This document shows positions 1 through 12,096 of a stretch of 12,342 bases of DNA, one piece after another. Origin of the DNA: an uncultured Isosphaeraceae bacterium (GTDB lineage: Bacteria; Planctomycetota; Planctomycetia; Isosphaerales; Isosphaeraceae); NCBI GenBank assembly GCA_964624465.1, contig CAZUZD010000181.1, forward strand, positions 1-12,342, given 5' to 3'. The first letter of the stretch is position 1. The number at the start of each line of letters is the position of its first letter. The position numbers and the translations under genes are program-made. The notes under the pieces are model-generated. The model saw only the letters and a list, made by a program, of their open reading frames with translations. It did no database searches and was not told the origin of the DNA.

Positions 1-393
1 CCAGTTCAGGGCGTTGCCGGCACGCATGCCGGTCGCGGTGCCAACCACATCGTCAGCACTACCGGTGTAGCGGGTATCGCTTTCCTTCTTCATCCGCCAT
101 AGGCGCAGCGACTCCTCGCCATCGTCATAGCGGAAGGTCTCGTGCAGCGTGCCGGTATTGCCGTCCCACGCACCGACCATGTCGACCTCGAAGCGGCGCA
201 GCACCCGGCCCTTGCGGTCCTGGACGATGCCCCAGGCGGTGACCTTGCCGTCGAAATATTCCTCCATACGCAGTTCCGGCTTGGCGCCCGCGTAGATGTT
301 CGGTTCGATGCTCATGCAGCCTCCCAGGGCGAACAGCGTAAACAGCAGTGCCGAGACTTGCCCGCTACGGGCTAGAACGAAAACACGGGACAT
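1..393 (-). CDS. Partial DUF3833-like lipoprotein. The first 131 codons are present; the 3' end lies beyond the window start.
   Basis: Reverse-strand translation from the ATG (revcomp of 391-393) gives MSRVFVLARSGQVSALLFTLFALGGCMSIEPNIYAGAKPELRMEEYFDGKVTAWGIVQDRKGRVLRRFEVDMVGAWDGNTGTLHETFRYDDGEESLRLWRMKKESDTRYTGSADDVVGTATGMRAGNALNW. This has a signal peptide with an LGGC lipobox. The EEYFDGK..AWG.VQDR.G.V.RRF.VD..G.W.G..G.L.E.F.YDDGE pattern is as I recall it for the DUF3833 family. A perfect GGAGG (plus strand cctcc, 400-404) sits 6 nt upstream of the ATG. There is no in-frame stop before the window edge. GC and codon usage (cgt, gaa, tat, cta) differ from the rest of the window. Confidence 0.55.
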   Translation of the reverse strand, partial: MSRVFVLARSGQVSALLFTLFALGGCMSIEPNIYAGAKPELRMEEYFDGKVTAWGIVQDRKGRVLRRFEVDMVGAWDGNTGTLHETFRYDDGEESLRLWRMKKESDTRYTGSADDVVGTATGMRAGNALNW

Positions 394-576
394 GACGAGC
401 CTCCTGCAAGGAGCTGTTCCCTCCGCGTTGGCTCGGTGGTGTCGGGGCTCAGCCAGATGGCGATGAACGCGTTACCGAAGGCGGGGTCCGGGATGGTGCC
501 CAGGTAGCCCTCGGTGCCAAAAAAGTGGGAGACGCCGTCTTGATCGACTTGCAGCAGCAGAACATCCCCCGGCTCG

Positions 577-1131
577 ATGTCGGGCCAGATCGCACGGATC
601 TGGCGGAGCCAGCCGGTCTTCCAGCGCCGGAAGTTCTTCAAGGGCCGGCCGATCCGGGGCGCCGACATCAAGGACCTCTCCTGGCTCGACCCCACCGGCG
701 GCGAGATGACCGACGAGGCCTGGAACGCCGGCTACGTGAAGTGCCTGGGGATGCAGCTCGCCGGCGACCTGATCGGCGACGTCGACGAGCGTGGGCAGCC
801 GATCGTGGGCGAGACGGTGCTCATCCTCATGAACGCCCACTGGGAGCCGCTGCCCTTCGCCCTGCCAGCCCCCGCCGCCGGCCACCACTGGGAGCATCTG
901 GTCGACACCTCCGACCCGACCGCCACGGCCACCTTCCTGGGCGAGTCGGCCAGCTACCCGCTCAAGGACCGCAGCGTGGTCGTGCTCCGCCAGCGCCGGA
1001 AGGACGAGCCGGCCGGCCTGGTGCTCTCGGGCCAGCAGACCGAGCAGATCCTCGAAGGCCGGCTCCAGCCCGCCGGCCCCAGCGGCGGCGTGCCGGCCAC
1101 CTCCACCCTGGCCAACACCCGCGGCACCTGA
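577..1131 (+). pseudogene. glgX: 5'-truncated glycogen debranching enzyme (GlgX/TreX-type) remnant: C-terminal ~185 codons only
   Basis: Translation IARIWRSQPVFQRRKFFKGRPIRGADIKDLSWLDPTGGEMTDEAWNAGYVKCLGMQLAGD..GQPIVGETVLILMNAHWEPLPFALPA..WEHLVDTSDP matches the conserved GlgX C-terminal region (HPVFRRRRFF-GRPI-G...W..P.G.EMT.EDW...F..L....DD.F.L.FNAH.E...F.LP). The frame is closed by a TGA at 541-543. None of the three upstream plus frames contains GlgX-like sequence. A full GlgX is ~700 aa, so the N-terminal catalytic domains are absent. Confidence 0.55.
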
Positions 1132-1292
1132 GCCCGGCCCCCGATCCGGCCGCGTCCCGACCCCCCGGTTCCCCCCCACCATCGCCCTCGCCCGCGCCGC
1201 TCCACACCGGCCGGGCGGGGGCGATTGCGTGTCCGGGTCCGGTTCCGGCGGCACGAACCCGCCGGTCGGCCGGGCGGGGCGTCCCGAGACGC

Positions 1293-1301
1293 TGTTTCCC
1301 G
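1293..1301 (+). promoter_or_regulatory. Copy 1 of shared upstream motif TGTTTCCCG, 117 nt upstream of the QueC-like operon start
   Basis: The exact octamer GTTTCCCG occurs only 3 times on the plus strand of the window (here, 8725-8732 and 9611-9618), all in upstream intergenic regions of plus-strand genes. Given the base composition, fewer than 0.1 occurrences are expected by chance. Confidence 0.3.
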
Positions 1302-1312
1302 ATCGACAGCCG

Positions 1313-1342
1313 TTGGGTATCGTGGTCCCTGAATGTTATGGT
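1313..1342 (+). promoter_or_regulatory. Possible sigma70-like promoter (TTGGGT, 18 nt spacer, TATGGT) in a locally AT-richer stretch
   Basis: TTGGGT at 1313-1318 and TATGGT at 1337-1342, with the ATG at 1419 (~70 nt leader). The match to consensus is weak; Planctomycete promoters are poorly defined. Confidence 0.15.
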
Positions 1343-1347
1343 GTGCT

Positions 1348-1361
1348 CGATCGATCGATCG
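1348..1361. promoter_or_regulatory. Perfect 14-nt palindrome CGATCGATCGATCG, i.e. (GATC)3, just downstream of the putative -10: candidate operator
   Basis: The sequence is self-complementary as read. It lies in the leader of the QueC-like operon, 47 nt downstream of the TGTTTCCCG motif. Confidence 0.25.
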
Positions 1362-1418
1362 GGTGCGGTCCCGACCCGCCGGTCGGGCCGCTCCCCGGAC
1401 CGGCTCGCGTGATCCGCG

Positions 1419-2708
1419 ATGCAGATTCACCCCCCCGAATTCACCGTCGCCAACGACCGCTGGACCGCGTCGGCCGTGATCGAGAGCGCCTCGGGCCAGC
1501 GCCAGACGCTCTGGTATCGCGGGGCCTGCTCGGCGGCGGTGGCCGTCAGCCGGCAGTCGGACCCGTTCGTCGTCGCCTCGGTGTTCCTGGCGATGCGCCG
1601 TGGGGAACCGCTCCGGATCGCCGGGCCGGTGTCCCCCTCGCTGCTGGGGAACCTGGAGGAGTTCATCGCCGCCTGGTCGATGCTCAAACCCGCGTCGTAC
1701 CGGCGGATCGCGATCGAGGCGGACACGCTCCGGGAACCGCCGGCGGCTCGCACCGGCAGCGCCGTGATGGGGTTCTCGGCGGGGGTTGACGCCTGCTTCA
1801 CCGCCTGGCGGCACACCCAGGACCGCGCCGGCTTCCAGCGGCTCCCCCTGGCGGCCGGGGTGCTGGTCCACGGCTTCGACATTCCGCTGGATCAGCCCGA
1901 CATGTTCCAGGGGGCCGCCGCGCGGGCCCGGGCGCTGCTGGAGAGCGTGGGCCTGGAGTGCCTCACGGTCGCGACGAACCTGCGACAGTTCACCGGCGAG
2001 TGGTCCGACACGCATGCCGCCGCGCTGGCCTCGTGCCTGCACCTGCTCCAGCCCGGGTTCGCCACCGGGGTCATCAGCGGCTCGTACCCGTACGAGGATC
2101 GGGTGTTCGTGCATGGCTCGTGCCCGCTGACCGACCGGCTGCTGGGCAGTCGCCGGTTCCCGATCGTGCACGACGCCGCCCAGGCCGGCCGGCAGGCGAA
2201 GATCCGGGACCTGGGGCACTGGCCCGAGGTCCGGCAGCACCTGCGCGTCTGCTGGCAAGGCGCGCAGAAGGATCGCAACTGCGGCCGCTGTCACAAGTGC
2301 GTCAACGCCATCCTCAACTTCCGGATCGCCGGCCATGGCGCCCTGCCGGCGTTCCAGCCCGAGGCCACTCCCGCCCAGATCGCCCGCGTGCCGCACCATA
2401 CCGACACCGTGATCGGGATCTCGCGGCGGACGCTCGCCGACGCCCGCCGTGCCGGCTACCACGACCCCGGCCTCGCGGCCCTGCGACGCGCCGTCAGGCG
2501 AAGGTGGCTCCAGCCCGCCTGGTGGCGGTACCGGCTCGGCGGCTGGCGCGATCGGCTGCGCGGTCGCCTGGTTCCGGCCCTGAAGCGGCACTGGCGGCGC
2601 ACCAGCTTGCCCCTGCCACCGGCTCGCATTTTGCCGCTGACAGTCGACAATGGAGGCCCCGATCCCGGTGCTCGTCATGGGAGGGGCGAGCCCGGTTCGC
2701 GACGATGA
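1419..2708 (+). CDS. QueC-like PP-loop ATPase/amidoligase paralogue A (429 aa) with an ~115-aa N-terminal extension and a basic Trp/Arg-rich C-terminal tail
   Basis: GC3 is above 90% and amino-acid composition is normal. The PP-loop-like segment VMGFSAGVDACFTAW resembles QueC VVFSGGQDSTTCL. The C-terminal zinc motif VCWQGAQKDRNCGRCHKCVNAIL (C-x9-C-x2-C-x2-C) is nearly the same as the QueC motif CYNG...GCGHCAACNLR (C-x8-C-x2-C-x2-C). The protein is ~68% identical to the CDS at 3772..4962, and its N-terminus aligns with that paralogue from Met1. There is no obvious SD. Confidence 0.8.
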   Translation: MQIHPPEFTVANDRWTASAVIESASGQRQTLWYRGACSAAVAVSRQSDPFVVASVFLAMRRGEPLRIAGPVSPSLLGNLEEFIAAWSMLKPASYRRIAIEADTLREPPAARTGSAVMGFSAGVDACFTAWRHTQDRAGFQRLPLAAGVLVHGFDIPLDQPDMFQGAAARARALLESVGLECLTVATNLRQFTGEWSDTHAAALASCLHLLQPGFATGVISGSYPYEDRVFVHGSCPLTDRLLGSRRFPIVHDAAQAGRQAKIRDLGHWPEVRQHLRVCWQGAQKDRNCGRCHKCVNAILNFRIAGHGALPAFQPEATPAQIARVPHHTDTVIGISRRTLADARRAGYHDPGLAALRRAVRRRWLQPAWWRYRLGGWRDRLRGRLVPALKRHWRRTSLPLPPARILPLTVDNGGPDPGARHGRGEPGSRR

Positions 2709-2744
2709 TCCCGCGGCATCCAGGAACTTCAGGCCGGAGCCGGC

Positions 2745-3746
2745 ATGCGGAATCCGTATCTGCTCTTCCTGGGTGACGCCCGGGACGCGCTGGCCGCCAA
2801 GACGGCGCAAGGGCTGGCCGACTGGCGACCCGGGTGGTGCGTGGGCCAGCTCCGGCTGCCGGGCTGCCAGGCGGACGTGGGCCTCCCGGACCTGACGATC
2901 GCGGCGGCGGCCGCGGCCGGGGCCCGGACCCTGGTGATCGGCCTGGCCAGCTCGGGCGGGGCGCTGCTGCCCCACTGGGTGCCCACCTTGCTCCGGGCGC
3001 TCGACGCGGGGCTGGACCTCGCCAACGGCCTGCACGATCGGCTGAGCGACCATCCCGAGATCGCCGCCGCGGCCGGGCGGCTGGGGCGGACGCTCCACGA
3101 CGTGCGCCACTGCGGCCAGACCTTCGCCACCGGCACGGGCCGGAGGCGATCCGGGCGCCGGGTGCTGACGGTGGGGACCGATTGCTCGGTCGGCAAGATG
3201 TACACCGCCCTGGCGATCGAGCGGGAGCTGCGGCGCCTGGGTCGCAGCGCCGACTTCCGCGCCACCGGTCAGACGGGCATCCTGATCGCCGGCCAGGGCA
3301 TCGCCATCGACGCCGTGGTGGCCGACTTCATCGCCGGGGCCGCCGAGGCGCTCGCGCCCGATCACGAGCCGGAACACTGGGACGTGATCGAGGGCCAGGG
3401 CTCGCTGTTCCACCCCGCGTTCGCGGGCGTCACGCTCGGCCTGCTCCACGGCTCGCAGCCCGACGCCCTCGTGCTCTGCCACGAGCCGACCCGTCAACAC
3501 CTGCGGGGCCTGCCCCAGGCGCCGGTGCCCGACCTGGAGGCGTGCGTCGAGCCCTACCTGCAAGCCGCCCGGCTCACCAGCCCCGCGTGCCGGCTGGCCG
3601 GCGTGAGCCTGAACACCCGAGGGCTCGACCCCGAGGCCGCCCGTCGACTGATCGCCGAGGTCGAGGACCGGCTGTCCGTGGTCGGTACCGACCCGCTGCG
3701 GTTCGGCGTGAGTCGGCTCGTCGAGCGACTCCTCGGCGATCGGTGA
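2745..3746 (+). CDS. DUF1611-like two-domain protein (Rossmann-like N-domain plus a BioD/CobQ-like P-loop C-domain with GTDCSVGKM); DgcN-like
   Basis: The ORF is 333 aa with GGAG 5 nt upstream of the ATG and a 36-nt gap after the upstream gene. The motifs LFLGDARDALAAKTAQGLADWRP, VGTDCSVGKMYTAL, ATGQTGIL.AGQGIAIDAVVADF and EGQGSLFHPAFAGVTLGLLHGSQPDALVLCHEP match my memory of DUF1611 (PF07755/PF17396). The family assignment is from memory, not from a search. Confidence 0.6.
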   Translation: MRNPYLLFLGDARDALAAKTAQGLADWRPGWCVGQLRLPGCQADVGLPDLTIAAAAAAGARTLVIGLASSGGALLPHWVPTLLRALDAGLDLANGLHDRLSDHPEIAAAAGRLGRTLHDVRHCGQTFATGTGRRRSGRRVLTVGTDCSVGKMYTALAIERELRRLGRSADFRATGQTGILIAGQGIAIDAVVADFIAGAAEALAPDHEPEHWDVIEGQGSLFHPAFAGVTLGLLHGSQPDALVLCHEPTRQHLRGLPQAPVPDLEACVEPYLQAARLTSPACRLAGVSLNTRGLDPEAARRLIAEVEDRLSVVGTDPLRFGVSRLVERLLGDR

Positions 3747-3771
3747 CCCGCCCCCGCGCGCAGGATGATCC

Positions 3772-4962
3772 ATGAAGGTTCACGCTCCCGAGTTCACCGT
3801 CTCCGAAGGCCACGGGGTCGCGTCCGCCGTCCTCGAGACGGACGATGGCCGCCGCCGGTCGCTCTGGTACCGGGTGCCCGAGTCGGCGGCCGGGTCCGTG
3901 AGCCGACAGGCCGATCCGTTCGCCATCGGCGCGGTGTTCCTGGCCATGATTCGCGGCGAGCGGCTGCGGATCGCCGGCCCGGTCTCTCCCTCGCTGCTGG
4001 GGAACCTGGAGGAGTTCATCGCCGCCTGGTCGATGCTCCGGCCGGCCGACTACCGTCGCATCGCCATCGAGGCGGACACCCTCCAGGAGCCGCCGGCGTC
4101 CCGGAAGGCCGGCGCCGTGCTCAGCTTCTCGAGCGGCGTGGATGCCTGCCTCTCGGCCTGGCGGCACACCCAGGACCTGGCCGGCTACCAGCGCCTGCCG
4201 CTGGCCGCCGGCGTGCTGATCCATGGCTTCGACATCCCGCTCGATCAGCCCGCGACCTTCGGGCGGGCGGCCGTGGGCGCGCGGGCCCTGCTGGCGAGCG
4301 TCGGCCTGGAGTACCGGACGATCGCCACCAACTTCCGCGACCTGCCCGGCGAATGGTCCGACACCCATGGCGCCGGGCTGGCCTCGTGCCTGCACCTGCT
4401 GCAGCCGGAGTTCGCCCTCGGGGTGATCGGCAGCAGCTACACCTACGCCGAGGGCGTGGTCCTGTACGGCTCGTGCCCGCTGACCGATCCGCTGCTGGGC
4501 AGCCGCGGGTTCCCGATCGTGCACGACGCCACCCCGATGAGCCGGCAGGAGAAGATCCAGGCGCTGGGGGCCTGGCCCGAGGCGCGCCAGCACCTGCGCG
4601 TCTGCTGGCAGGGGCCGCACCTGGACCGCAACTGCGGCCGCTGCTTCAAGTGCCTGAACGTGATCCTCAAGGCCCGGGTCGCCGGCCTGGGCCGGCTGGC
4701 GGCGTTCCCGGTCGAGGCGACGCCCGCGCGGATCGCCACGATCCAGCTCCGCGCCGACCTGACCCTCGCCAGCGCCGGCCGCACCCTGGCCGACGCCCGC
4801 CGGGCCGGCTACCACGACGCCGGGATCGCCGCCCTGCGGTTCAACGTCTGGACCACCCGCCTCCGCCCCTTCTGGTGGCGGTCGCGCCTGCGCACCTGGC
4901 GCGAGCGCCGGCGCGACCGGCAGGCCCGGGCTGCCGGCCACCCGGCCGGATCCGCCGACTGA
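3772..4962 (+). CDS. QueC-like PP-loop ATPase/amidoligase paralogue B (396 aa)
   Basis: GGA SD 6 nt upstream, with a 25-nt gap after the DUF1611-like gene. The PP-loop-like segment is VLSFSSGVDACLSAW and the zinc motif is VCWQGPHLDRNCGRCFKCLNVIL. The conserved tail is RRAGYHDAGIAALR...RLRPFWWRSRLRTWRERRRDR. Architecture and ~68% identity match 1419..2708. Confidence 0.8.
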   Translation: MKVHAPEFTVSEGHGVASAVLETDDGRRRSLWYRVPESAAGSVSRQADPFAIGAVFLAMIRGERLRIAGPVSPSLLGNLEEFIAAWSMLRPADYRRIAIEADTLQEPPASRKAGAVLSFSSGVDACLSAWRHTQDLAGYQRLPLAAGVLIHGFDIPLDQPATFGRAAVGARALLASVGLEYRTIATNFRDLPGEWSDTHGAGLASCLHLLQPEFALGVIGSSYTYAEGVVLYGSCPLTDPLLGSRGFPIVHDATPMSRQEKIQALGAWPEARQHLRVCWQGPHLDRNCGRCFKCLNVILKARVAGLGRLAAFPVEATPARIATIQLRADLTLASAGRTLADARRAGYHDAGIAALRFNVWTTRLRPFWWRSRLRTWRERRRDRQARAAGHPAGSAD

Positions 4963-5029
4963 CACGGCGTCGGGTCGGCGCGCCGGGCCCACGCTCGTCG
5001 TCCGGGCCGCGTTGCCCGGATTCTCGGAC

Positions 5030-5064
5030 GGCCGACCGCCGCCGGGTGCTGGCGGTGGTCGGCC
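5030..5064. terminator. 14-bp GC-rich hairpin (one G-U pair, 7-nt loop) between convergent genes: candidate bidirectional terminator
   Basis: GGCCGACCGCCGCC (5030-5043) pairs with GGCGGTGGTCGGCC (5051-5064), leaving loop GGGTGCT. It lies 68 nt after the stop at 4962 and 42 nt from the GH2 stop at 5106-5108. A relatively U-containing tract (GTCTGGTGTGGTGG) follows on the plus strand. Confidence 0.35.
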
Positions 5065-5105
5065 GTCTGGTGTGGTGGCGAACCCTGCGGGGCGGACCGG
5101 GCGGG

Positions 5106-8100
5106 TCAGTCGCCCTTGAGCACGGTCAGGCCCAGGTCGATGCCCTGGCCGCCGCCGGTCTGGCGGCAGCGGACGGCGATCTGGTTCGGGCCCGGCTTGA
5201 AGGCGGCGCGGGCGCGGCCGTCGAGCACGACGTCCTCGTAGGCGGTGATGTAGCCGGGGCCGACGTACACCCGCTTGCCGTTGACGTAGAGGTCGACGTC
5301 CTCGTCGTGGAACAGCCGGAGCATCAGCAGGTCATTGTCGCCCAGCTCGGGCACGTCGATGGTCGTGCGGAGCCAGATCGTCGGCGTGTTCCAGGGGGTG
5401 TGCACGGCCACGGCGGGCGTGCCCTCGGTGCCGAAGCCGGCCGGGCCGCGCTTCCAGGCGGAGTCGTCGAAGCCAGGCTCGATCCAGGCGCCGACCTCGG
5501 GCTCGTCGGTGGTGTAGGCCCAGGTCGTCGCCTGGTCGCGGCCGGCCTCGCCGGAGGGGAGCACGCCCACGCGCCGCGAGGCCATCGTCTCGACGGCCGG
5601 GCTGAGGCCGGCGTCGACGCCCAGGTCGGCGGGCAGGTCGGCCTCGGTCTCCAGGAACAGGGTCGGTTCGATCGGGTAGGCCCCGGTCTCGGCGCCATAG
5701 ACCGCCAGGCCGCCGTGCGGGCCGCTGTCGTCGCTGGTGCCCAGGCGGAGGATCAGGGGGCTGCCGGCGGCCAGGTCGGCGATCGCGGTGTCGGGCAGGG
5801 GGTGGGCGGCGTCGATCAGGTAGCCGAAGCTGCCGTGCTCCTGGCCCTTCAGGTGCGAGAGCACGCCGCGGGCGTCGGCCGGGTCATCGGCCAGGGCCAC
5901 GCCGGCGACCCGACGGCCGTTGAGGGTGATCAGCACGCCCGAGGGGTGCTTGCGGACGTCCGTTTGAGGGTAGTCCTGCGCGTTGCGCCGCAGGGCCCAG
6001 TCCACCTTCTCGCGGCCCGCCTTGGCGGCCAGCTCGGCGCGGATCCGGAACGCCTTCGGCTTCGCCTTCACCACCGCCTCGGGCACCTTGAGCTTGTAGA
6101 CGAACGAGCCGTTGCCGCGGCCGTGCGCCTTGCCGTCGGGGAGGCTGAAGCCGTCCGACCAGCGGGCGCTCGAGAACTCGCCGGGGGCGAATCGCAGGGC
6201 GACCGTGTGGTCGTCGATCCGCTCGATCCTGGGCGCCGGCGCCTCGGGCCGCACCACGACGTTGACGAAGTTCGCCGCCAGCCGCTTGCCGGTCCTGTCC
6301 TCCAGCACCAGGGCGACGGCGCCGACGAACGGCTCGCCCAGCTTGAAGGCGACCCGCTTCTGCGGCGTGACGCTGTAGGGGGCCCACTGCACCTCCCGGG
6401 TGCGCGGCTCGATGCCGATCTTCTCGCCCTCGCCGTTGACGCCCGTGACCCACCACTTCAGCACCGGGGCCTCGGTCAGGGTCGAGTAGTGGCTCACGAA
6501 CAGTTCCACGGGGATCAGCTCGCCGACCTTGGCCTCGATCGCCGGCGGGCCGTCGTAGCCGATGAAGTCGGCCCCTTGCAGGTCGGCCGGGGTCATGCCG
6601 GGGACGAAAGCGTCGTAGCCGAAGGTCTTGGGCGTGCGGTCGTAGTTGGCGAAGCCATTGTGTTCCCACTCGATGTCGGTCAGCTCGGTGTAGATGTAGC
6701 CCTGGATCTTGGGCTGCTTGCGGAGCAGGGTGGTCAGGTCGCGGAAGCCCCACGAGATGTCGCGGTCGCCGCTACCGGCCGAGACCGAGCCGTACTCGCT
6801 GTTGATCAAGGGGGCCGAGTTCATCGTCTCGCCCGGGCAGTAGTTGAACGCGCTGCCGGGGGTGCTGCCGGCGACGACGCCGTCGATGTGCCGCTTCGCC
6901 TCGTCGTGGTTGTCGATGTAGAAGTGCCACGAGTTCAGGTCGGTGCCCGCGACGTGGTCGTAGTTGCAGGGGCTGTTGTCCTCGATCAGCCGGGTCGGGT
7001 CGATCTGCCGCATCAGGGCGACCATGTCCTTGACCCACTGCTGCGTGCCCTTGTTCGCCTTGTACTCCTCGGGCGTGCCCAGGCCCCAGGTCTCGTTGAA
7101 GGCGACCCACGAGAAGATCGACGGGTGGTTGCGGTCGCGCGGCAGGATCTCGCGCATGGTCGCTTCCCAGGCCGCCCGGGCTCGCTCGTTCTGGCGCCAG
7201 GTGTTGGGCATGTCCTCCATGATCAGCATGCCGAGCTTGTCGGCCCAGTAGAGCCGGCGGGGCTCCTCGGGCTTGATGTGGATCCGCAGGAAGTTCGTGC
7301 CCATCGTGCGGGCCAGCTCGATGTCCTGCTTGAGGAACTCGTCGCTGGGCGCGGTGTACAGGCCCTCGGGGTTGAACGACTGGTCCAGGGCCCCGCGCAG
7401 GTAGATCGGCTTGCCGTTGAGCAGGACCCGCTCGAACGGCTCGTCGCCGACCTTGCCGCGGGCGATCGTGCGGAGGCCGAGGTAGGTCCGGATCGAGTCG
7501 ACGGCGCCCGAGGGGCTCTTGAGCTCCAGGGTCACGTCGTAGAGGTGCGGCGACTCGGGCGACCAGAGCTTCGCGTTCTGGACCGGGAACATGAAGGTGT
7601 GCACGGTCGGCGCGGCGTTGTCCTCGCCGGTGGCGAACGTGGCCGAGCGGGCGCCGATCTCGGGGGCCTCGCCGGTCAGGCTCACGGTGTACTCCCCCTT
7701 CTCGGCGGGGCGCACCAGCAGGTTCACCTTCACGACGGCCGGTTCGAGCGACAGCGTCGCGGAGCCGAACGCCTCGATGCGCGCCTTCGGGCGTGATTCG
7801 AGCCAGACCGTCTGCCAGATGCCCGAGCTGGGCGTGTACCAGCCCACCTGCTTGCCCGTCGGCAGGCTGGGGTCGGTCGGGTCGAAGGCGCGGACGACGA
7901 CCGTGTTGTCTTCCCCGCGCTTGAGGGCGTCGGTGGCGTCGACCTCGAACGGGCTGTACCCCCCCTCGTGCTCGGCGACCTTGGTGCCGTTGATCCAGAC
8001 ATCGGCCCGCCAGTCGACGGCGCCGAAGCGGAGCCAGACGCGGTCGTCGGCCGGGAACGCGTCGGGCACGCGGACCGTGCGGCGGTACCAGCCGATCTGG

Positions 8101-8447
8101 GGCGTGACGCCCTTGGCCGCGTCGGCCGGGGTCCTGAGCCCGGCCAGGGCGCTCTCCCAGGGGAACGGCACGGCGATCGTCTGGTCGAAGCCGGCGGCGT
8201 CGGGGGCGAACCACTCGGCCTTGAGGCCCTCGTCGCCGGCGTCGAACCGGAACTGCCAGGGGCCGTTGAGGTTCGCCCAGTGCGGCCGCACGGCCGTCGG
8301 GTCGGGATGCTCGGGCCGGGGGATCGCCGCGGCCGGGGCTGTCGCCTGCGCCCCGGACGCCGGGGGCGCCCACGGGCTCAGGATCGCCAGGGCCAGGGCC
8401 AGGGCCAGCACCGGCCGGCTGGCGGCGCGGGGGAGGCGGGGAATCAT
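5106..8447 (-). CDS. Secreted glycoside hydrolase family 2 enzyme (beta-glucuronidase/beta-galactosidase/beta-mannosidase-like), 1113 aa with extra C-terminal beta-sandwich domains
   Basis: The GH2 hallmarks are present: VWINGTKVAEHEGGYSPFEVD (compare GUS HQGGYTPFEAD), the acid/base motif SWVAFNE (compare WSIANEP) and the nucleophile motif INSEYG (compare IITEYG). The likely true start is the ATG at 8447-8445, giving MIPRLPRAASRPVLALALALAILSPWAPPASGAQA, a signal peptide with an A-x-A cleavage site. A GGAG lies 8 nt upstream. The track's upstream extension to 8663 is R/P/G-rich and would bury the signal peptide. Confidence 0.85.
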   Translation of the reverse strand: MIPRLPRAASRPVLALALALAILSPWAPPASGAQATAPAAAIPRPEHPDPTAVRPHWANLNGPWQFRFDAGDEGLKAEWFAPDAAGFDQTIAVPFPWESALAGLRTPADAAKGVTPQIGWYRRTVRVPDAFPADDRVWLRFGAVDWRADVWINGTKVAEHEGGYSPFEVDATDALKRGEDNTVVVRAFDPTDPSLPTGKQVGWYTPSSGIWQTVWLESRPKARIEAFGSATLSLEPAVVKVNLLVRPAEKGEYTVSLTGEAPEIGARSATFATGEDNAAPTVHTFMFPVQNAKLWSPESPHLYDVTLELKSPSGAVDSIRTYLGLRTIARGKVGDEPFERVLLNGKPIYLRGALDQSFNPEGLYTAPSDEFLKQDIELARTMGTNFLRIHIKPEEPRRLYWADKLGMLIMEDMPNTWRQNERARAAWEATMREILPRDRNHPSIFSWVAFNETWGLGTPEEYKANKGTQQWVKDMVALMRQIDPTRLIEDNSPCNYDHVAGTDLNSWHFYIDNHDEAKRHIDGVVAGSTPGSAFNYCPGETMNSAPLINSEYGSVSAGSGDRDISWGFRDLTTLLRKQPKIQGYIYTELTDIEWEHNGFANYDRTPKTFGYDAFVPGMTPADLQGADFIGYDGPPAIEAKVGELIPVELFVSHYSTLTEAPVLKWWVTGVNGEGEKIGIEPRTREVQWAPYSVTPQKRVAFKLGEPFVGAVALVLEDRTGKRLAANFVNVVVRPEAPAPRIERIDDHTVALRFAPGEFSSARWSDGFSLPDGKAHGRGNGSFVYKLKVPEAVVKAKPKAFRIRAELAAKAGREKVDWALRRNAQDYPQTDVRKHPSGVLITLNGRRVAGVALADDPADARGVLSHLKGQEHGSFGYLIDAAHPLPDTAIADLAAGSPLILRLGTSDDSGPHGGLAVYGAETGAYPIEPTLFLETEADLPADLGVDAGLSPAVETMASRRVGVLPSGEAGRDQATTWAYTTDEPEVGAWIEPGFDDSAWKRGPAGFGTEGTPAVAVHTPWNTPTIWLRTTIDVPELGDNDLLMLRLFHDEDVDLYVNGKRVYVGPGYITAYEDVVLDGRARAAFKPGPNQIAVRCRQTGGGQGIDLGLTVLKGD

Positions 8448-8717
8448 GACGGGCGCTCCGTGCTGGGGAGAGGGGAGTGCGCGGGCCGCGCGGGCCCGAC
8501 GGCCCATCCGGGCGGTCGCGCCGGGTGCCGACGGCCGCCGTGAGCCGGGCGCCCTCCGGTGGCGGGGACGCATCGCCCCGAGCCTATCAGACCCTCCCGG
8601 GGGCCGCGAGGGCCGGCCCGGGTGATGCCCGGCCGCCACGACCGGCCGGCGGTGGCACGCCATCTGCCGGCCAACCGCTCACACTCACGCCCCGGCGCGA
8701 GTCAAGCCTTTCGCAGT

Positions 8718-8799: not shown

Positions 8800-9495
8800 A
8801 TGAAGACCAGGATGCCCCGCCGCCCCCGTTCCCTGCAGCTCGAGACCCTCGAAGGCAAGGCGCTGCTCGCCGCGGCCGCCACCCGCCTGGTCCTGCCGCC
8901 GGCGCTGATCGGCCCGGTCCAGGTGCGGGCCGCCGTCGCCTCGACGCCGGCCCCGACCGCCGGCCGGGTCTCGGCCCAGCAGGTGGCTGACAACGGCACC
9001 ACCCAGATCACCCACGAGCGGTTCAAGGTGCGCGGCGGCCAGACCAGCTACGACCTGAACCTCAAGGAGGGCGGCTACAAGTTCGACCAGTCGTACGACC
9101 TGACCGTCCGCCGCGTCCGGGGCCAGGTCCAGACCGGGACCCTGACGGCCGCCGAAGCGGCCGGGCTGTTCTACGCGCGCTTCGACGAGCTGTCCACCAA
9201 CGCCATCGCCAACGGCGGCAACACCAACCACGGCGGCCTGACCGGCGGCGACTTCGAGGACATCGAGGTCCGCAAGCAGAACTACAGCATCCGCAACGGC
9301 AAGACGACCTACAACCTCACGTTCCGCTCCGGCGGCTACGAGTTCCAGCAGTCGTACACCCTGAAGGTCCGCCGCGACGGCAACTCGCCCATCACCGGCA
9401 CCCTCTCGGCCGCCGATGCCGTGGGCCTGTTCGTCCAGCGGTTCGACACGCTGGCCACCCAGTACGTCAGCACCCACGGCGCTGGCAACATCTGA
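8800..9495 (+). CDS. Small secreted protein (231 aa) with a Planctomycete-type N-terminus (RRPRSLQLETLEGKALLAAA) and two tandem ~87-aa domain repeats; function unknown
   Basis: AGGAG 10 nt upstream. The N-terminal R-rich segment followed by L.LE.LE...LL is the motif seen on many Planctomycete secreted proteins. Internal repeat 1: TSYDLNLKEGGYKFDQSYDLTVRRVRGQVQTGTLTAAEAAGLFYARFDELST. Internal repeat 2: TTYNLTFRSGGYEFQQSYTLKVRRDGNSPITGTLSAADAVGLFVQRFDTLAT. They are ~60% identical. Confidence 0.75.
   Translation: MKTRMPRRPRSLQLETLEGKALLAAAATRLVLPPALIGPVQVRAAVASTPAPTAGRVSAQQVADNGTTQITHERFKVRGGQTSYDLNLKEGGYKFDQSYDLTVRRVRGQVQTGTLTAAEAAGLFYARFDELSTNAIANGGNTNHGGLTGGDFEDIEVRKQNYSIRNGKTTYNLTFRSGGYEFQQSYTLKVRRDGNSPITGTLSAADAVGLFVQRFDTLATQYVSTHGAGNI
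9043..9459 (+). repeat. Intragenic tandem duplication: two ~156-nt repeat cores (9043-9198 and 9304-9459) with a period of 261 nt (87 codons)
   Basis: Protein-level alignment: T[ST]Y[DN]L..GGY[KE]F[DQ]QSY.L.VRR......TGTL[TS]AA[ED]A.GLF..RFD.L[SA]T. The nucleotide copies are also clearly similar. Confidence 0.6.
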
Positions 9496-9540: not shown

Positions 9541-9603
9541 TGTCCCCACCCGGACCCCGCCCGCCGCTCCGGTGGCCGCGGCATGCTTTCCATGTTCCCC
9601 AGA

Positions 9604-9618
9604 TTGCCCTGTTTCCCG
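9604..9618 (+). promoter_or_regulatory. Copy 3 of shared upstream motif (TTGCCCTGTTTCCCG), 177 nt upstream of the flotillin start, in an AT-richer leader
   Basis: It is 14/15 identical to 8718-8732. The TGTTTCCCG core is also at 1293-1301. It is followed by TTGGAT and AAATAT-like elements. Confidence 0.3.
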
Positions 9619-9795
9619 GATTGGATTCTTCCAAATATCCTGAGATGGGAGTCGAATGGCTCTCGATGGTTGCCAGGCTGTCCCCTGTGCGGCCGGTGGG
9701 CCCGCTGGGTCCCGGCCGGGGAGAGCGATCGAGGGACCCGCCCCGTGCGCGGGTCCGGCACCATCGCAGGAGGCCCCCCAATCCGGGGTCAGAAC

Positions 9796-12096
9796 ATGGT
9801 GAGCTTGCTGGGGATCGGCCTGGGCACTGTCCTGCCGATCGCGGCGCTGTTCCCGGGCGACTGGGCCGTCTTCGGCCTGGCCGGGCTGGGGGTCGCCGCC
9901 GTGCTGGCGGTGGTCTTCAGTGGACTGCGTTACATCCCGAACAACCGGGTGGGCATCGTCGAGAAGCTCTGGTCGTCGAGCGGCTCGGTGCCCGAGGGGC
10001 AGATCATGGCGCTGGCGGGGGAGGCGGGCTTCCAGGCCGGCCTGCTCCGCGGCGGCATCCACTTCGGCCAGTGGCTCTGGCAGTACCGGATCCACAAGGT
10101 CAGCCTGGTCACCGTCTCGCAGGGGAAGATCGGCTACGTCTATGCCCGCGACGGCGTGCCCCTGGCGCCCAGCCAGACGCTGGGCCGGATCACCGAGTGC
10201 AAGAACTTCCAGGACGCCGCGGCCTTCCTGATGGGCCCGGCCGAGGATGAGACGGGCGTGATCCGCGGTCAGCGCGGCCGGCAGCGGGCCATCCTGCGCG
10301 AGGGCGTCTACGCCATCAACCTGGCGCTCTTCGTGGTCATCACCGAGCAGTCCGTCTACCGGCTCGAGAATCAGGGGCGCCGCGAGGTCGAGACCCTGCT
10401 CGGCTGGCAGAAGGAGCTGGCCGACCTGAACGCCTTCAACCCGGTCGTCGTGGGCGCCCCGATCGAGGCCCCCGACCCGCTGCGGCCCGGGCACCTGATG
10501 CACACCGACAGCATCGGCATCGTCACCGTGCACGACGGCCCCAGCCTCGGCCCCGGGCAGATCATCGCGCCCGAGGTCGGCACCGAGCGCAACGACAAGC
10601 ACTTCCACAACAACTTCCAGGACTCCGAGGCGTTCCTGGCCGGCGGCGGCCACCGCGGCCGGCAGTACGCGACCCTGACCGACGGCACCTACTTCATCAA
10701 CCGCTGGTTCGCCACGGTCGAGATGATCCCCAAGACCGTCGTTCCGATCGGCTACGTCGGCGTGGTGGTCAGCTACTACGGCCGCGCCGGCCTGGACGTC
10801 TCGGGTACCGGCTTCCGCCACGGCGAGCGGGTGCAGGACGGCGAGCGCGGCGTCTTGACCCGGCCGCTGGGACCCGGCAAGTACCCGTTCAACACGTATG
10901 CCGGCAACATCGTGCTCGTGCCCACGACCAACTTCGTGCTGCACTGGGTCACCGGCCGCTCCGAGAGCCACCGCTACGACGAGAGCCTGCGCTCCATCGA
11001 GATGGTGACCAAGGACGCCTACGAGCCGACCCTGCCGCTGTCCGTGGTCGTGCACATCGACTACGAGAAGGCGCCCAGCGTCATCCAGCGGTTCGGCGAC
11101 GTCTCCAAGCTGATCACCCAGACCCTGGACCCGATGCTCTCGGCCTACTTCCGCGACGTGGCCCACAAGCGGACGATGCTCGAGCTGCTGCACCAGCGCG
11201 ACGAGATCCAGGCCGAGTCGCGCGAGGCGCTGGCCCGGCGGTTCGGGCAGTTCGACATCGAGTGCGTCGACGTCCTGATCGGCAAGCCCGACACGGCCGA
11301 GGCCGGCGGCAAGATCGAGCTGCTGCTCGAACAGCTCCGGCAGCGGCAGTTCTCGGTCGAGCAGCTGGAGACCTACGAGCGCCAGCGCGCCTCGGCCGAG
11401 AAGCTCCAGGAGCTGAACGAGGCCCAGGCCCTGGCGACCATGCAGACGCAGCTGACCAACTCGCGGGTGCAGGTCAAGATCGTCGAGAACCAGGGCGAGG
11501 CCGACCTGGCCAAGGTGCAGAAGGCCGCCGAGGCCGACCTGGCGCGGGCCCGCAAGCAGGCCGAGCAGATGGTCGTCATGGCCGACGCCGAGCTGTCCCG
11601 CTCGCGCAAGGCCGCCGAGCAGACCCTCGTCACCGCCCAGGCCGAGGCCGAGCAGCGCCGGCTCGCCGGCAAGGGTGAGGCCGCCAAGCTCGCCCAGATC
11701 GGCCTGTCGGAGGCGTCGGTCCTGCTCCGCAAGATCCAGTCGTTCTCCGACCCGAGGCTCTACGCCCTCACGCAGGTCGCCGCCCAGCTCGCCCACAGCC
11801 AGCAGCCGCTGGTCCCCCAGCGCGTCTTCATGGCCGGTGGCTCGGCCGGCGGCGGCAACGGCGACGGCAAGTCTGGCGCGGGCGGGGTCGACGCCGCCGG
11901 CGGCCTGTTCGGTATGCTCCTGAGCCTGATGGTCGCTGAGAAGTCCGGCTTCAGCCCCGCCGAGGCCGACCCCGAGCTGACCCGCCTGGCCTCCTACGCT
12001 GACGAGCTGGCCCGCGACCAGCCGATCACCGAGCCGGCCCCGGTCCCGGCCGTGATCCCGACCCCCACCGTCGCGCCGGCCAGCAACGGCAAGTGA
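9796..12096 (+). CDS. Flotillin-like SPFH/band-7 membrane protein (766 aa): two N-terminal TM helices, an SPFH domain, a long Ala/Glu/Gln-rich coiled coil and a Gly-rich C-terminus (YqiK/FloT-type)
   Basis: Starting at ATG 9796 gives MVSLLGIGLGTVLPIAALFPGDWAVFGLAGLGVAAVLAVVFSGL (hydrophobic). This is followed by YIPNNRVGIVEK..., then the heptad-like segment AEADLARARKQAEQMVVMADAELSRSRKAAEQTLVTAQAEAEQRRLAGKGEAAKLAQ, then the tail GGSAGGGNGDGKSGAGGVDAAGGLFGMLLSL, which resembles the E. coli YqiK C-terminus. An AGGAGG lies 22 nt upstream. The track's earlier start at 9583 would add a Cys/Trp/Arg-rich non-membrane extension ahead of the TM helix and would cover the upstream motif. Confidence 0.8.
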   Translation: MVSLLGIGLGTVLPIAALFPGDWAVFGLAGLGVAAVLAVVFSGLRYIPNNRVGIVEKLWSSSGSVPEGQIMALAGEAGFQAGLLRGGIHFGQWLWQYRIHKVSLVTVSQGKIGYVYARDGVPLAPSQTLGRITECKNFQDAAAFLMGPAEDETGVIRGQRGRQRAILREGVYAINLALFVVITEQSVYRLENQGRREVETLLGWQKELADLNAFNPVVVGAPIEAPDPLRPGHLMHTDSIGIVTVHDGPSLGPGQIIAPEVGTERNDKHFHNNFQDSEAFLAGGGHRGRQYATLTDGTYFINRWFATVEMIPKTVVPIGYVGVVVSYYGRAGLDVSGTGFRHGERVQDGERGVLTRPLGPGKYPFNTYAGNIVLVPTTNFVLHWVTGRSESHRYDESLRSIEMVTKDAYEPTLPLSVVVHIDYEKAPSVIQRFGDVSKLITQTLDPMLSAYFRDVAHKRTMLELLHQRDEIQAESREALARRFGQFDIECVDVLIGKPDTAEAGGKIELLLEQLRQRQFSVEQLETYERQRASAEKLQELNEAQALATMQTQLTNSRVQVKIVENQGEADLAKVQKAAEADLARARKQAEQMVVMADAELSRSRKAAEQTLVTAQAEAEQRRLAGKGEAAKLAQIGLSEASVLLRKIQSFSDPRLYALTQVAAQLAHSQQPLVPQRVFMAGGSAGGGNGDGKSGAGGVDAAGGLFGMLLSLMVAEKSGFSPAEADPELTRLASYADELARDQPITEPAPVPAVIPTPTVAPASNGK

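What the first reader, a model, noticed from the sequence alone, without database searches (positions are those of the whole stretch)
1419..4962. Three-gene operon: two enlarged QueC-like PP-loop amidoligase paralogues flanking a DUF1611-like (Rossmann plus BioD-like P-loop) gene
Seen in the sequence. Two ~400-430 aa paralogues (~68% identical) each combine a PP-loop-like S[SA]GVDA segment with a QueC-type C-terminal zinc knuckle (CWQG..NCGRC.KC) and share an N-terminal ~115-aa domain of unknown fold. Between them, separated by gaps of 36 and 25 nt and each preceded by an SD, lies a 333-aa protein with GTDCSVGKM and other motifs I associate with DUF1611/DgcN.

Established knowledge. QueC enzymes are ATP-dependent carboxylate-to-amide/nitrile ligases that act on 7-deazapurines. 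Enlarged QueC-like proteins occur in the Qat (QatC) and type IV CBASS (Cap9) defence systems, where they are reported to attach a deazaguanine moiety to protein N-termini. BioD-like P-loop enzymes are ATP-dependent C-N ligases.

Inference. None of the usual partners is present in the window: no TatD, QatA ATPase, TGT-like, OGG-like or CD-NTase gene, and no queD/queE/folE. The QueC-like-pair plus DUF1611 arrangement does not match any described context that I know. It could be a novel small-molecule or macromolecule modification module, and the paralogues may act as a heterodimer. This is the most system-like locus in the window.
Basis: partly seen in the sequence, partly recalled or inferred. 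Interest (0 to 1): 0.8.

Follow-up and report, generated by a model that had tools for sequence, protein, structure and literature searches.

The report
QueC-fold ligase paralogues flanking dgcN
Two diverged copies of a large, unstudied family of ATP-using enzymes (shaped like QueC, and normally found in polysaccharide-building gene clusters) sit on either side of an ordinary D-glutamate acetyltransferase gene in a planctomycete; the family is a good lead, but nothing shows that this three-gene arrangement is a conserved system.

Summary
Three co-oriented genes lie at 1419-2708 (A), 2745-3746 and 3772-4962 (B), with 36- and 25-nt gaps, and A and B are 68% identical.

- **Middle gene:** an orthodox DgcN. 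It scores above the NCBIfam equivalog cut-off and matches both DUF1611 domains.
- **The family:** large (about 3,200 50%-identity clusters at E≤1e-30), unnamed, and tied to glycan synthesis. Members lie next to or are fused with polysaccharide pyruvyl transferases, O-methyltransferases and Wzt. Tandem copies are common.
- **The DgcN link:** none of about 158 related loci carries dgcN.
- **Origin:** relative to one Isosphaeraceae relative, the triad is an insertion between glgX and a GH2 gene. A closer relative keeps a B orthologue beside GH2.
- **Divergence:** A and B are unusually diverged, with PP-loops SAGVDA and SSGVDA.

Verdict: a new variant of a known enzyme kind. Coupling to DgcN is unproven, and a deazapurine or defence role is unlikely.

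The parts
1419..2708 (+). Gene A, 429 aa. A diverged member of an unnamed QueC-fold PP-loop/zinc-knuckle family, with an N-terminal alpha/beta domain (about residues 1-105), a PP-loop domain, a Cys knuckle, a helical C-terminal region and an Arg-rich tail.
   Evidence: ORF. 68% identical to B. It is hit P0002 in the family search. All 28 invariant family columns are retained.
1773..1796 (+). PP-loop segment of A: FSAGVDAC (residues 119-126). This is a deviant form of the family's FSGGVDS[CS].
   Evidence: Motif census: 111 of 115 relatives have SGGxD[SA]; A has SAGVDA.
2250..2300 (+). Cys knuckle of A: CWQGAQKDRNCGRCHKC (residues 278-294), of the form C(x)9CxxCxxC.
   Evidence: It aligns to the E. 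coli QueC zinc motif TCYNGFKGD-GCGHCAAC in hhalign.
2745..3746 (+). dgcN, 333 aa: DUF1611_N Rossmann-like domain plus DUF1611_C P-loop domain. Named D-glutamate N-acetyltransferase DgcN by the NCBIfam equivalog.
   Evidence: It is 60-68% identical to thousands of DgcN proteins. GGAG lies 6 nt upstream of the ATG.
3772..4962 (+). Gene B, 396 aa: paralogue of A from the same family. This is the protein that was modelled.
4126..4149 (+). PP-loop segment of B: FSSGVDAC (residues 119-126).
4603..4653 (+). Cys knuckle of B: CWQGPHLDRNCGRCFKC (residues 278-294).
5027..5067 (.). GC-rich hairpin (17-nt arms, 94% complementary, 7-nt loop) between the convergent stop codons of B and the GH2 gene. A possible bidirectional terminator; there is no T-tract.
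   Evidence: Inverted repeat I15. The consensus terminator scan found nothing.
577..1131 (+). Left boundary of the insertion: the C-terminal 184 codons of a glgX/isoamylase gene. The rest of the gene is missing and there are stop codons upstream.
   Evidence: Weak Isoamylase_C Pfam hit. Stops upstream. 66% identical to the C-terminus of the full 745-aa glgX of L169.
5106..8663 (-). Right boundary of the insertion: a GH2 glycoside hydrolase convergent with B. The product on record is 1113 aa, so the true start is probably near 8447.
   Evidence: In L169 this gene is directly convergent with glgX and nothing lies between them.

Best explanation
A and B are diverged, duplicated members of a large and so far unnamed family of about 400-aa cytoplasmic enzymes. 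Each has an N-terminal alpha/beta domain, a QueC-like PP-loop ATP-pyrophosphatase domain with a four-cysteine (probably zinc) knuckle, and a helical C-terminal region.

By analogy with every characterised PP-loop enzyme, they most likely adenylate an oxygen of their substrate, most plausibly a carboxylate as in QueC, and then let a nitrogen nucleophile displace AMP to give an amide. This step is inferred, not shown.

The family's normal job is glycan modification. Members sit beside or are fused to polysaccharide pyruvyl transferases, sugar O-methyltransferases and Wzt/Wzm exporters. The favoured family-level substrate is therefore a sugar-borne carboxylate, such as the pyruvate-ketal carboxyl.

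The middle gene is an ordinary dgcN, the acetyl-CoA-dependent N-acetyltransferase for D-glutamate. The three genes are probably co-transcribed. They form a lineage-specific insertion between glgX and a GH2 gene in an Isosphaeraceae planctomycete. The locus is not a QueC, QatC or Cap9 deazapurine system. Whether A/B act on the DgcN product is open.
For: - **Zinc knuckle:** it aligns to E. coli QueC, with an aromatic residue after the first Cys, as for the essential Y189 of QueC (PMC13329287 read).
- **Family PP-loop:** canonical SGGxD[SA] in 111 of 115 relatives.
- **Family size:** 3,203 representative clusters at E≤1e-30. All named relatives are called 'hypothetical' and none has a Pfam domain.
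- **Context:** PS_pyruv_trans occurs in 40 of 84 genome loci and is adjacent in 21. Neighbour clusters within 5 kb: GT2 in 36 loci, an AsnB-like protein in 29, pyruvyl transferase in 31, Wzt in 16, Wzm in 12.
- **Conserved operon:** Wzm-Wzt-AsnB-like-family-pyruvyl transferase-GTs in three Planctomycetota loci.
- **Fusions:** to PS_pyruv_trans (P0245, P0262), to an O-methyltransferase (P0258, P0308, P0117) and to a Wzt-type ABC ATPase (P0305).
- **A sandwich elsewhere:** family - pyruvyl transferase - family in Anabaena, L054.
- **DgcN identity:**. Its canonical context with dgcA is seen in L085.
- **Insertion:** L169 has GH2 directly convergent with a full glgX. L168 has a B orthologue (82%) beside GH2.
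- **Both copies maintained:** all invariant residues are kept, and the A/B duplication predates the split from the L168 organism (82% to B against 62% to A).
Against: - No biochemical data exist for any family member, so the chemistry rests on fold analogy and gene context.
- A and B lack the canonical PP-loop (SAGVDA, SSGVDA). They deviate at 13 of 84 columns that are at least 90% conserved in relatives, including three that are 100% conserved there: H68A, W89L and G253A. Their activity or substrate may therefore differ from the rest of the family.
- None of the family's usual glycan partners is in this 12-kb window.
- Tight spacing with dgcN (25-36 nt, with SDs) argues for co-expression, so functional coupling cannot be dismissed.
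- dN/dS between A and B is 0.48, which is not strongly constrained. However, GC3 above 90% depresses dS.
Confidence: 0.6

Rival explanations
1. The triad is a real three-enzyme pathway. DgcN makes N-acetyl-D-glutamate (or another N-acetyl-D-acidic amino acid). A and B then each activate one of its carboxylates, alone or as a heteromer, to amidate it or to ligate it to an amine acceptor such as an amino sugar or cell-wall component.
For: - The genes are co-oriented with 36- and 25-nt gaps and have SDs, and both junctions were assembled independently.
- DgcN lacks its usual dgcA partner here.
- In L054 a group-transferring enzyme (pyruvyl transferase) that creates a carboxylate occupies the same sandwiched position between two family copies.
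- A and B share lineage-specific changes at otherwise conserved positions, as expected after a change of substrate.
Against: - None of about 158 related loci has dgcN within 6-10 kb.
- The DgcN relatives whose contexts were examined lack family genes.
- DgcN is 60-68% identical to thousands of orthodox DgcN proteins and passes the equivalog cut-off, which suggests an unchanged function.
- dgcN also stands without dgcA in another Isosphaeraceae contig, so the absence of dgcA is not special to this locus.
- Only one lineage shows the arrangement.
Confidence: 0.17
2. A and B are catalytically impaired or decaying duplicates (pseudoenzymes or regulators), because the ATP-binding PP-loop has degenerated.
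For: - Their PP-loops are SAGVDA and SSGVDA, against SGGxD[SA] in 111 of 115 relatives.
- They have 13 deviations at conserved columns; the median for relatives is 4.
- dN/dS is 0.48.
- The neighbouring glgX is truncated, so the locus has been rearranged.
Against: - Both are full-length ORFs with all 28 invariant residues and the four-Cys knuckle.
- The first Ser, the third Gly and the Asp of the PP-loop are retained.
- A B orthologue is kept at 82% identity in a related genome, and the duplication is older than that split.
- The nearest outside relative, P0003, also has SSGVDS.
Confidence: 0.1
3. A and B act like the N-acetyl-sugar amidotransferases (WbpG/PseA/LfnA type). They would activate an acetamido carbonyl rather than a carboxylate and form an acetamidino group on a sugar.
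For: The family sits in a polysaccharide-cluster context. The amidotransferases are PP-loop enzymes of similar size with a Cys-rich motif (PMC13329287).
Confidence: 0.05
4. The locus is a QatC/Cap9-like anti-phage module that attaches 7-carboxy-7-deazaguanine to a protein N-terminus.
For: Cap9 is the second-best structural match. The proteins are about 400 aa with extensions, like QatC (PMC13329287).
Against: - No PADLOC model matches any of the three proteins.
- The QatC motifs and the QueC/Cap9 pocket motifs YxQxHxxE and YPDC are found in 0 of 120 relatives, and VPxRN in 1 of 120.
- No qatA/B/D, CD-NTase, Cap10/TGT or preQ0 genes are in the window.
- The family context is glycan synthesis, not defence islands.
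Confidence: 0.03

Closest known systems
QueC (7-cyano-7-deazaguanine synthase, PF06508; PDB 3bl5)
   Different: There is no PF06508 hit. The spacing is C(x)9 rather than C(x)8. The substrate-pocket motifs YxQxHxxE, VPxRN and YPDC are absent. The proteins have an extra N-terminal alpha/beta domain of about 105 aa and a C-terminal helical region of about 90 aa. The gene context is glycan synthesis rather than the queD/queE/folE pathway. In A and B the PP-loop itself is non-canonical.
Cap9 (type IV CBASS) and QatC (QatABCD): QueC-family protein deazaguanylases
   Different: No PADLOC hit. The QatC-specific motifs and its C(x)19CGxCxxRR knuckle are absent, and so is the QueC pocket that Cap9 retains. 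No CD-NTase, Cap10 or QatA/B/D partners are present. The family is not found in defence contexts.
N-acetyl-sugar amidotransferases (WbpG / PseA / LfnA; PDB 8wex)
   Same: They are PP-loop enzymes of 300-400 aa encoded in polysaccharide gene clusters, and they have a Cys-rich metal motif.
DgcN-DgcA D-glutamate catabolic pathway (Yu et al. 2023, ISME J 17:537, as cited in PMC12363236)
   Same: The middle gene passes the NCBIfam DgcN equivalog cut-off and has both DUF1611 domains. It is 60-68% identical to annotated DgcN proteins.
   Different: The canonical partner dgcA (MR_MLE family), which lies immediately downstream in L085, is absent. Its place is taken by gene B.

Membership tests
Canonical QueC (PF06508) | Match to the Pfam QueC profile at or above the gathering score | tested here: not met
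   No PF06508 hit for A or B even at E≤1. There is also no NCBIfam hit.
Canonical QueC (PF06508) | SGGxDS PP-loop | tested here: not met
   A has SAGVDA and B has SSGVDA. The wider family does have SGGxD[SA], in 111 of 115 relatives.
Canonical QueC (PF06508) | C(x)8CxxCxxC zinc motif with an essential aromatic residue after the first Cys | tested here: met
   The motif is present as the variant C(x)9CxxCxxC, with Trp after the first Cys, in A, B and 116 of 120 relatives. It aligns to E. coli QueC residues 187-205. Zinc binding itself was not tested.
Canonical QueC (PF06508) | Substrate-pocket motifs YxQxHxxE, VPxRN and YPDC (PMC13329287) | tested here: not met
   Found in 0 of 120, 1 of 120 and 0 of 120 relatives respectively, and absent in A and B.
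Canonical QueC (PF06508) | QueC-like three-dimensional fold of the catalytic domain | tested here: met
Canonical QueC (PF06508) | Conversion of CDG to preQ0 | not testable with these tools
   This needs an enzyme assay or complementation of a queC deletion.
QatC (QatABCD defence) | Match to QatC profiles, QatC-specific motifs, and neighbouring qatA, qatB and qatD genes | tested here: not met
   No PADLOC hit. The motifs D(x)4R(x)7WxR and C(x)19CGxCxxRR occur in 0 of 120 relatives and P(x)4TK in 1 of 120. No ATPase or TatD gene is in the window.
Cap9 (type IV CBASS) | Minimal QueC core of about 185 aa that retains the QueC pocket, encoded next to a CD-NTase | tested here: not met
DgcN (NCBIfam NF041892; DUF1611) | Score above the curated equivalog cut-off, and both DUF1611 domains | tested here: met
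   516.7 bits against a cut-off of 480. PF17396 has E 2.6e-23 and PF07755 has E 2e-76.
DgcN (NCBIfam NF041892; DUF1611) | Operon partner dgcA (an MR_MLE-family N-acetyl-D-glutamate racemase) | tested here: not met
   tblastn with the L085 DgcA finds nothing in the window at E≤1. The canonical pairing is seen in L085. The window is only 12 kb, so dgcA may lie elsewhere in the genome.
DgcN (NCBIfam NF041892; DUF1611) | Acetyl-CoA-dependent N-acetylation of D-glutamate | not testable with these tools
   This needs an enzyme assay.
N-acetyl-sugar amidotransferase (WbpG/PseA/LfnA) | SGGxDSxY P-loop, CxxC(x)6CxC motif and close fold match | tested here: not met
Unnamed QueC-fold, glycan-cluster family (defined here by alignment A1) | Full-length match to the family profile and retention of the invariant residues | tested here: met
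   B scores 494 bits (E 2e-143) over profile positions 4-384. A and B keep all 28 invariant columns.
Unnamed QueC-fold, glycan-cluster family (defined here by alignment A1) | Neighbourhood of polysaccharide genes (pyruvyl transferase, GT2, Wzm/Wzt, AsnB-like) | tested here: not met
   None of these genes is in the window. Only about half of the related loci show the pyruvyl transferase.

The most novel reading that the evidence does not exclude
A and B have been recruited from glycan modification to a new pathway with DgcN. DgcN N-acetylates a D-acidic amino acid, and the two diverged QueC-fold ligases activate its carboxylate(s) to amidate it or to attach it through an amide bond to an amine acceptor. 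This would be a route to N-acetyl-D-aminoacyl decorations or to D-Glu-derived amides. At family level, the enzymes would be the first carboxylate-amidating partners of polysaccharide pyruvyl transferases.
Probability: 0.15. Interest if true: 0.7.

Novelty: new variant of a known kind. Interest (0 to 1): 0.45.

Why it matters
The QueC scaffold is currently known from deazapurine biosynthesis, protein deazaguanylation in phage defence, and a few metabolic offshoots. This work points to a further large branch: thousands of sequence clusters in cyanobacteria, Chloroflexota, Planctomycetota, Verrucomicrobiota and others. The branch has no Pfam model and no literature that I could find. It is tied by gene adjacency and gene fusion to polysaccharide pyruvyl transferases, O-methyltransferases and Wzt exporters.

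If these enzymes amidate sugar-borne carboxylates, they would define an unrecognised glycan modification step. That would be relevant to cyanobacterial EPS and to recognition of capped glycans by ABC-transporter export systems.

The specific A-dgcN-B locus matters less. It is a single-lineage arrangement, and its main value is as a possible example of the family being retargeted.

Tried and rejected
- **Sequence profiles.** Pfam, NCBIfam and PADLOC scans of A and B gave only a sub-threshold DUF6395 hit at the Cys knuckle. phmmer and hmmsearch against PDB sequences gave only a weak GMP-synthase PP-loop hit at E 0.27.
- **Foldseek.** The full-length model against PDB gave nothing significant. 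The afdb50 library was unavailable.
- **hhalign.** The family against a single E. coli QueC sequence aligned only the knuckle, at probability 26%.
- **Conservation of the triad.** tblastn for DgcN found nothing in 84 genome loci or 79 metagenome loci. The contexts of the DgcN relatives P0122, P0143 and P0127 held no family genes. The closest family relative, P0003, is on a 2.9-kb contig with no DNA held.
- **The key relative.** Contig L168 ends inside the B orthologue, so the decisive view of its dgcN/A region was not available.
- **Other negatives.** No riboswitch or other Rfam family in the window. No sigma-70 promoter or canonical terminator. No flanking direct or inverted repeats that suggest a mobile element.
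- **Literature.** Searches for DUF6395 and for 'pyruvyl transferase' with 'PP-loop' found nothing. The original DgcN paper (PMC10030869) is not held.
- **Look-up failure.** An exact look-up of B by its translated window sequence failed.

Full report
**1. Observation**

The window has three co-oriented ORFs exactly where stated: A 1419-2708 (429 aa), a 333-aa gene at 2745-3746, and B 3772-4962 (396 aa). The intergenic gaps are 36 and 25 nt. GGAG and AGGA lie 6 nt upstream of the second and third start codons; no clear SD precedes A.

A and B are 68% identical over 370 residues without gaps. Their nucleotide similarity begins 25 nt upstream of both ATGs. The long antisense ORFs that overlap the region (for example 954-3773 on the minus strand) are what a 72-75% GC sequence produces by chance. 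Homology supports only the plus-strand genes.

A Logan assembly of run SRR13608702 is 100% identical to window 2532-4017. Both junctions were therefore assembled independently.

**2. The middle gene**

It matches DUF1611_N (E 2.6e-23) and DUF1611_C (E 2e-76). It scores 516.7 bits against the NCBIfam DgcN equivalog, whose cut-off is 480. It is 60-68% identical to thousands of DgcN proteins, mostly alphaproteobacterial, plus one from Isosphaeraceae.

dgcN is described as the key gene of an irreversible racemisation route for D-acidic amino acids (PMC12363236, citing Yu et al. 2023). In the canonical context it is followed immediately by an MR_MLE-family gene, dgcA (L085). No dgcA is in the window. 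However, another Isosphaeraceae contig also has dgcN without an adjacent dgcA (L086).

**3. The flanking proteins**

Sequence profiles do not place them in QueC. Pfam gives only a sub-threshold DUF6395 hit over the Cys motif, and NCBIfam and PADLOC give nothing. PDB sequence searches give only a weak PP-loop match to GMP synthase.

A homologue search found several hundred full-length relatives at 35-50% identity. Every one that carries a name is called 'hypothetical', and none has a Pfam domain. They come from cyanobacteria, Chloroflexota, Planctomycetota, Verrucomicrobiota, Desulfobacterota and others. A profile search of 1.84 billion cluster representatives found 3,203 at E≤1e-30 and 6,802 at E≤1e-10.

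The family alignment has 28 invariant columns, all kept in A and B. They include F-S-x-G-x-D of a PP-loop and four cysteines.

**4. Not QueC, QatC or Cap9**

I took the signatures from a 2026 survey of PF06508 (PMC13329287) and tested them by regular expression on A, B and 120 relatives.

| Signature | Relatives with the motif |
|---|---|
| YxQxHxxE (QueC pocket) | 0 of 120 |
| VPxRN (QueC pocket) | 1 of 120 |
| YPDC (QueC pocket) | 0 of 120 |
| QatC D(x)4R(x)7WxR and C(x)19CGxCxxRR | 0 of 120 each |
| QatC P(x)4TK | 1 of 120 |
| WbpG-type CxxC(x)6CxC | 0 of 120 |
| C(x)9CxxCxxC (this family) | 116 of 120 |

These pocket residues face the deazaguanine substrate in QueC and Cap9. Their absence argues against a deazapurine substrate. 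No preQ0, Qat or CBASS partner is in the window, and no riboswitch is present.

**5. The extra domains**

**6. What the family does, judged from context**

I examined 82 distinct genome loci and 79 metagenome loci.

- A locally built pyruvyl-transferase HMM hits 40 of 84 genome loci. The gene is adjacent in 21 and within 3 kb in 33.
- Clustering all neighbours within 5 kb gives these recurrent partners: GT2 glycosyltransferases (36 loci), a 610-aa AsnB-like amidotransferase (29), PS_pyruv_trans (23 plus 8), Wzt (16), Wzm (12), APS kinase (7) and GT4 (6). HtpG also recurs (13 loci), which is probably cyanobacterial synteny.
- Three Planctomycetota loci share the operon big protein-Wzm-Wzt-AsnB-like-family-pyruvyl transferase-GT2-GT2-GT4-GT2.
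- Fusion proteins give the same partners: family plus PS_pyruv_trans (P0245, P0262), family plus O-methyltransferase (P0258, P0308, P0117), and a Wzt-type ABC ATPase plus family (P0305).

The family therefore belongs to glycan biosynthesis or modification, particularly in ABC-transporter-dependent pathways.

All PP-loop enzymes adenylate a substrate oxygen and then replace AMP with N or S. The closest folds, QueC and Cap9, act on a carboxylate. The most economical mechanism is ATP-dependent amidation of a sugar-borne carboxylate. The pyruvate ketal made by the linked transferase is the obvious candidate. This step is inference.

**7. Tandem copies**

24 of 158 related loci carry two or more family genes, and one (L108) carries five. 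P0241 is a fusion of two copies. In the pairs inspected, both copies with a recognisable PP-loop have the canonical form.

In Anabaena locus L054 a pyruvyl transferase is sandwiched between two copies. This mirrors A-dgcN-B. Repeated duplication fits diversification of specificity at least as well as an obligate heterodimer. No multimer prediction was available to test the heterodimer idea.

**8. How unusual are A and B?**

Their PP-loops are SAGVDA and SSGVDA, whereas 111 of 115 relatives have SGGxD[SA]. They differ from consensus at 13 of 84 columns that are at least 90% conserved in 44 relatives; the median for relatives is 4 and the maximum 13. The differences include H68A, W89L and G253A, which are otherwise invariant, and 10 of the 13 are shared by A and B.

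dN/dS between A and B is 0.48, with dS 0.46.

They are thus a diverged branch whose changes arose before the duplication. This is compatible with a changed substrate, or less likely with loss of activity.

**9. Origin of the locus**

Every named homologue of the GH2 gene at 5106-8663 comes from Isosphaeraceae or is labelled Planctomycetota or soil metagenome.

- In a relative with a 68%-identical GH2 (L169, on a 1.2-Mb contig), GH2 is directly convergent with a complete 745-aa glgX. No family gene or dgcN lies nearby.
- In the window only the last 184 codons of glgX survive (577-1131). The triad lies between that remnant and GH2.
- In a closer relative (L168, GH2 84% identical), the gene convergent with GH2 is a partial orthologue of B. 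It is 82% identical to B and 62% to A. The contig ends inside that gene, so dgcN and A cannot be seen.

Three conclusions follow. B is maintained in at least two related genomes. The A/B duplication predates their split. The block is an insertion relative to L169. No transposon-like repeats flank it.

A 17-nt-arm GC hairpin at 5027-5067 may terminate both convergent transcripts.

**10. Is the triad a system?**

No dgcN homologue was found in any of the 84 plus 79 related loci. No family gene was found next to the three DgcN relatives examined. The arrangement is so far known from one lineage.

Tight spacing suggests co-transcription, so coupling remains possible; I put it at about 0.15-0.2. 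One appealing but untested version is that DgcN supplies N-acetyl-D-glutamate, whose carboxylates A and B activate.

**11. Verdict**

The QueC-like and DUF1611 assignments are right at the fold and family level. The deazapurine or defence analogy is not supported.

The flanking proteins belong to a large, undescribed, glycan-associated branch of the QueC-fold PP-loop enzymes, and they are an atypical offshoot of it. This is a new variant of a known kind. Interest is moderate and lies mainly in the family rather than in this particular three-gene arrangement.

Noticed in passing
window 577-1131 (+), with 1-576: Only the C-terminal 184 codons of a glgX/isoamylase gene are present, and stop codons lie upstream in the same frame. 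The first 576 nt show no similarity to the rest of glgX, although relatives have a complete 745-aa gene at this position. This is either a truncated pseudogene or a rearrangement or assembly breakpoint near 580.
   Followed up: partly
window 372-695 (-): A 107-aa ORF with a weak, sub-threshold match to the chalcone-isomerase-like family (PF16036, E 4e-5). It overlaps the start of the glgX remnant on the opposite strand.
   Followed up: no
window 8800-9495 (+): A 231-aa protein with no Pfam match that contains an internal duplication of about 70 aa (…YDLNLKEGGYKFDQSYDLTVRR…TGTLTAAEAAGLF… and …YNLTFRSGGYEFQQSYTLKVRR…TGTLSAADAVGLF…). It is conserved next to GH2 in the related contig L168.
   Followed up: no
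window 9583-12096 (+): An 837-aa protein with an SPFH/Band 7 domain (flotillin-like) and a long coiled-coil-like C-terminal part rich in A, E and Q.
   Followed up: no
window 5027-5067: A near-perfect GC-rich hairpin (17-nt arms, 7-nt loop) lies between the convergent stops of gene B and the GH2 gene. It has no T-tract, so the consensus terminator scan missed it.
   Followed up: no
window 5106-8663 (-): The mechanical ORF for the GH2 gene is 1185 aa, but the product on record is 1113 aa. The first 70 or so codons (Arg/Pro-rich) are probably not translated.
   Followed up: no
L045, L067, L080 (Planctomycetota loci): These loci share a conserved operon: a protein of about 1,500 aa, then Wzm, Wzt, a 610-aa AsnB-like amidotransferase, the QueC-fold family gene, a pyruvyl transferase, GT2, GT2, GT4 and GT2. 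The two PP-loop enzymes and the pyruvyl transferase lie between the exporter genes and the glycosyltransferase genes.
   Followed up: partly
P0305; P0245, P0262; P0258, P0308, P0117; P0377; L108: Family members are fused to a Wzt-type ABC ATPase (in the place of the usual Wzt C-terminal glycan-binding domain), to pyruvyl transferases, to O-methyltransferases and to a thioesterase. One metagenome contig (L108) carries five tandem copies.
   Followed up: partly
L086 (Isosphaeraceae contig): dgcN stands alone beside murB, with no dgcA adjacent. The dgcN-dgcA linkage seen in Alphaproteobacteria may therefore be generally absent in this planctomycete family.
   Followed up: no
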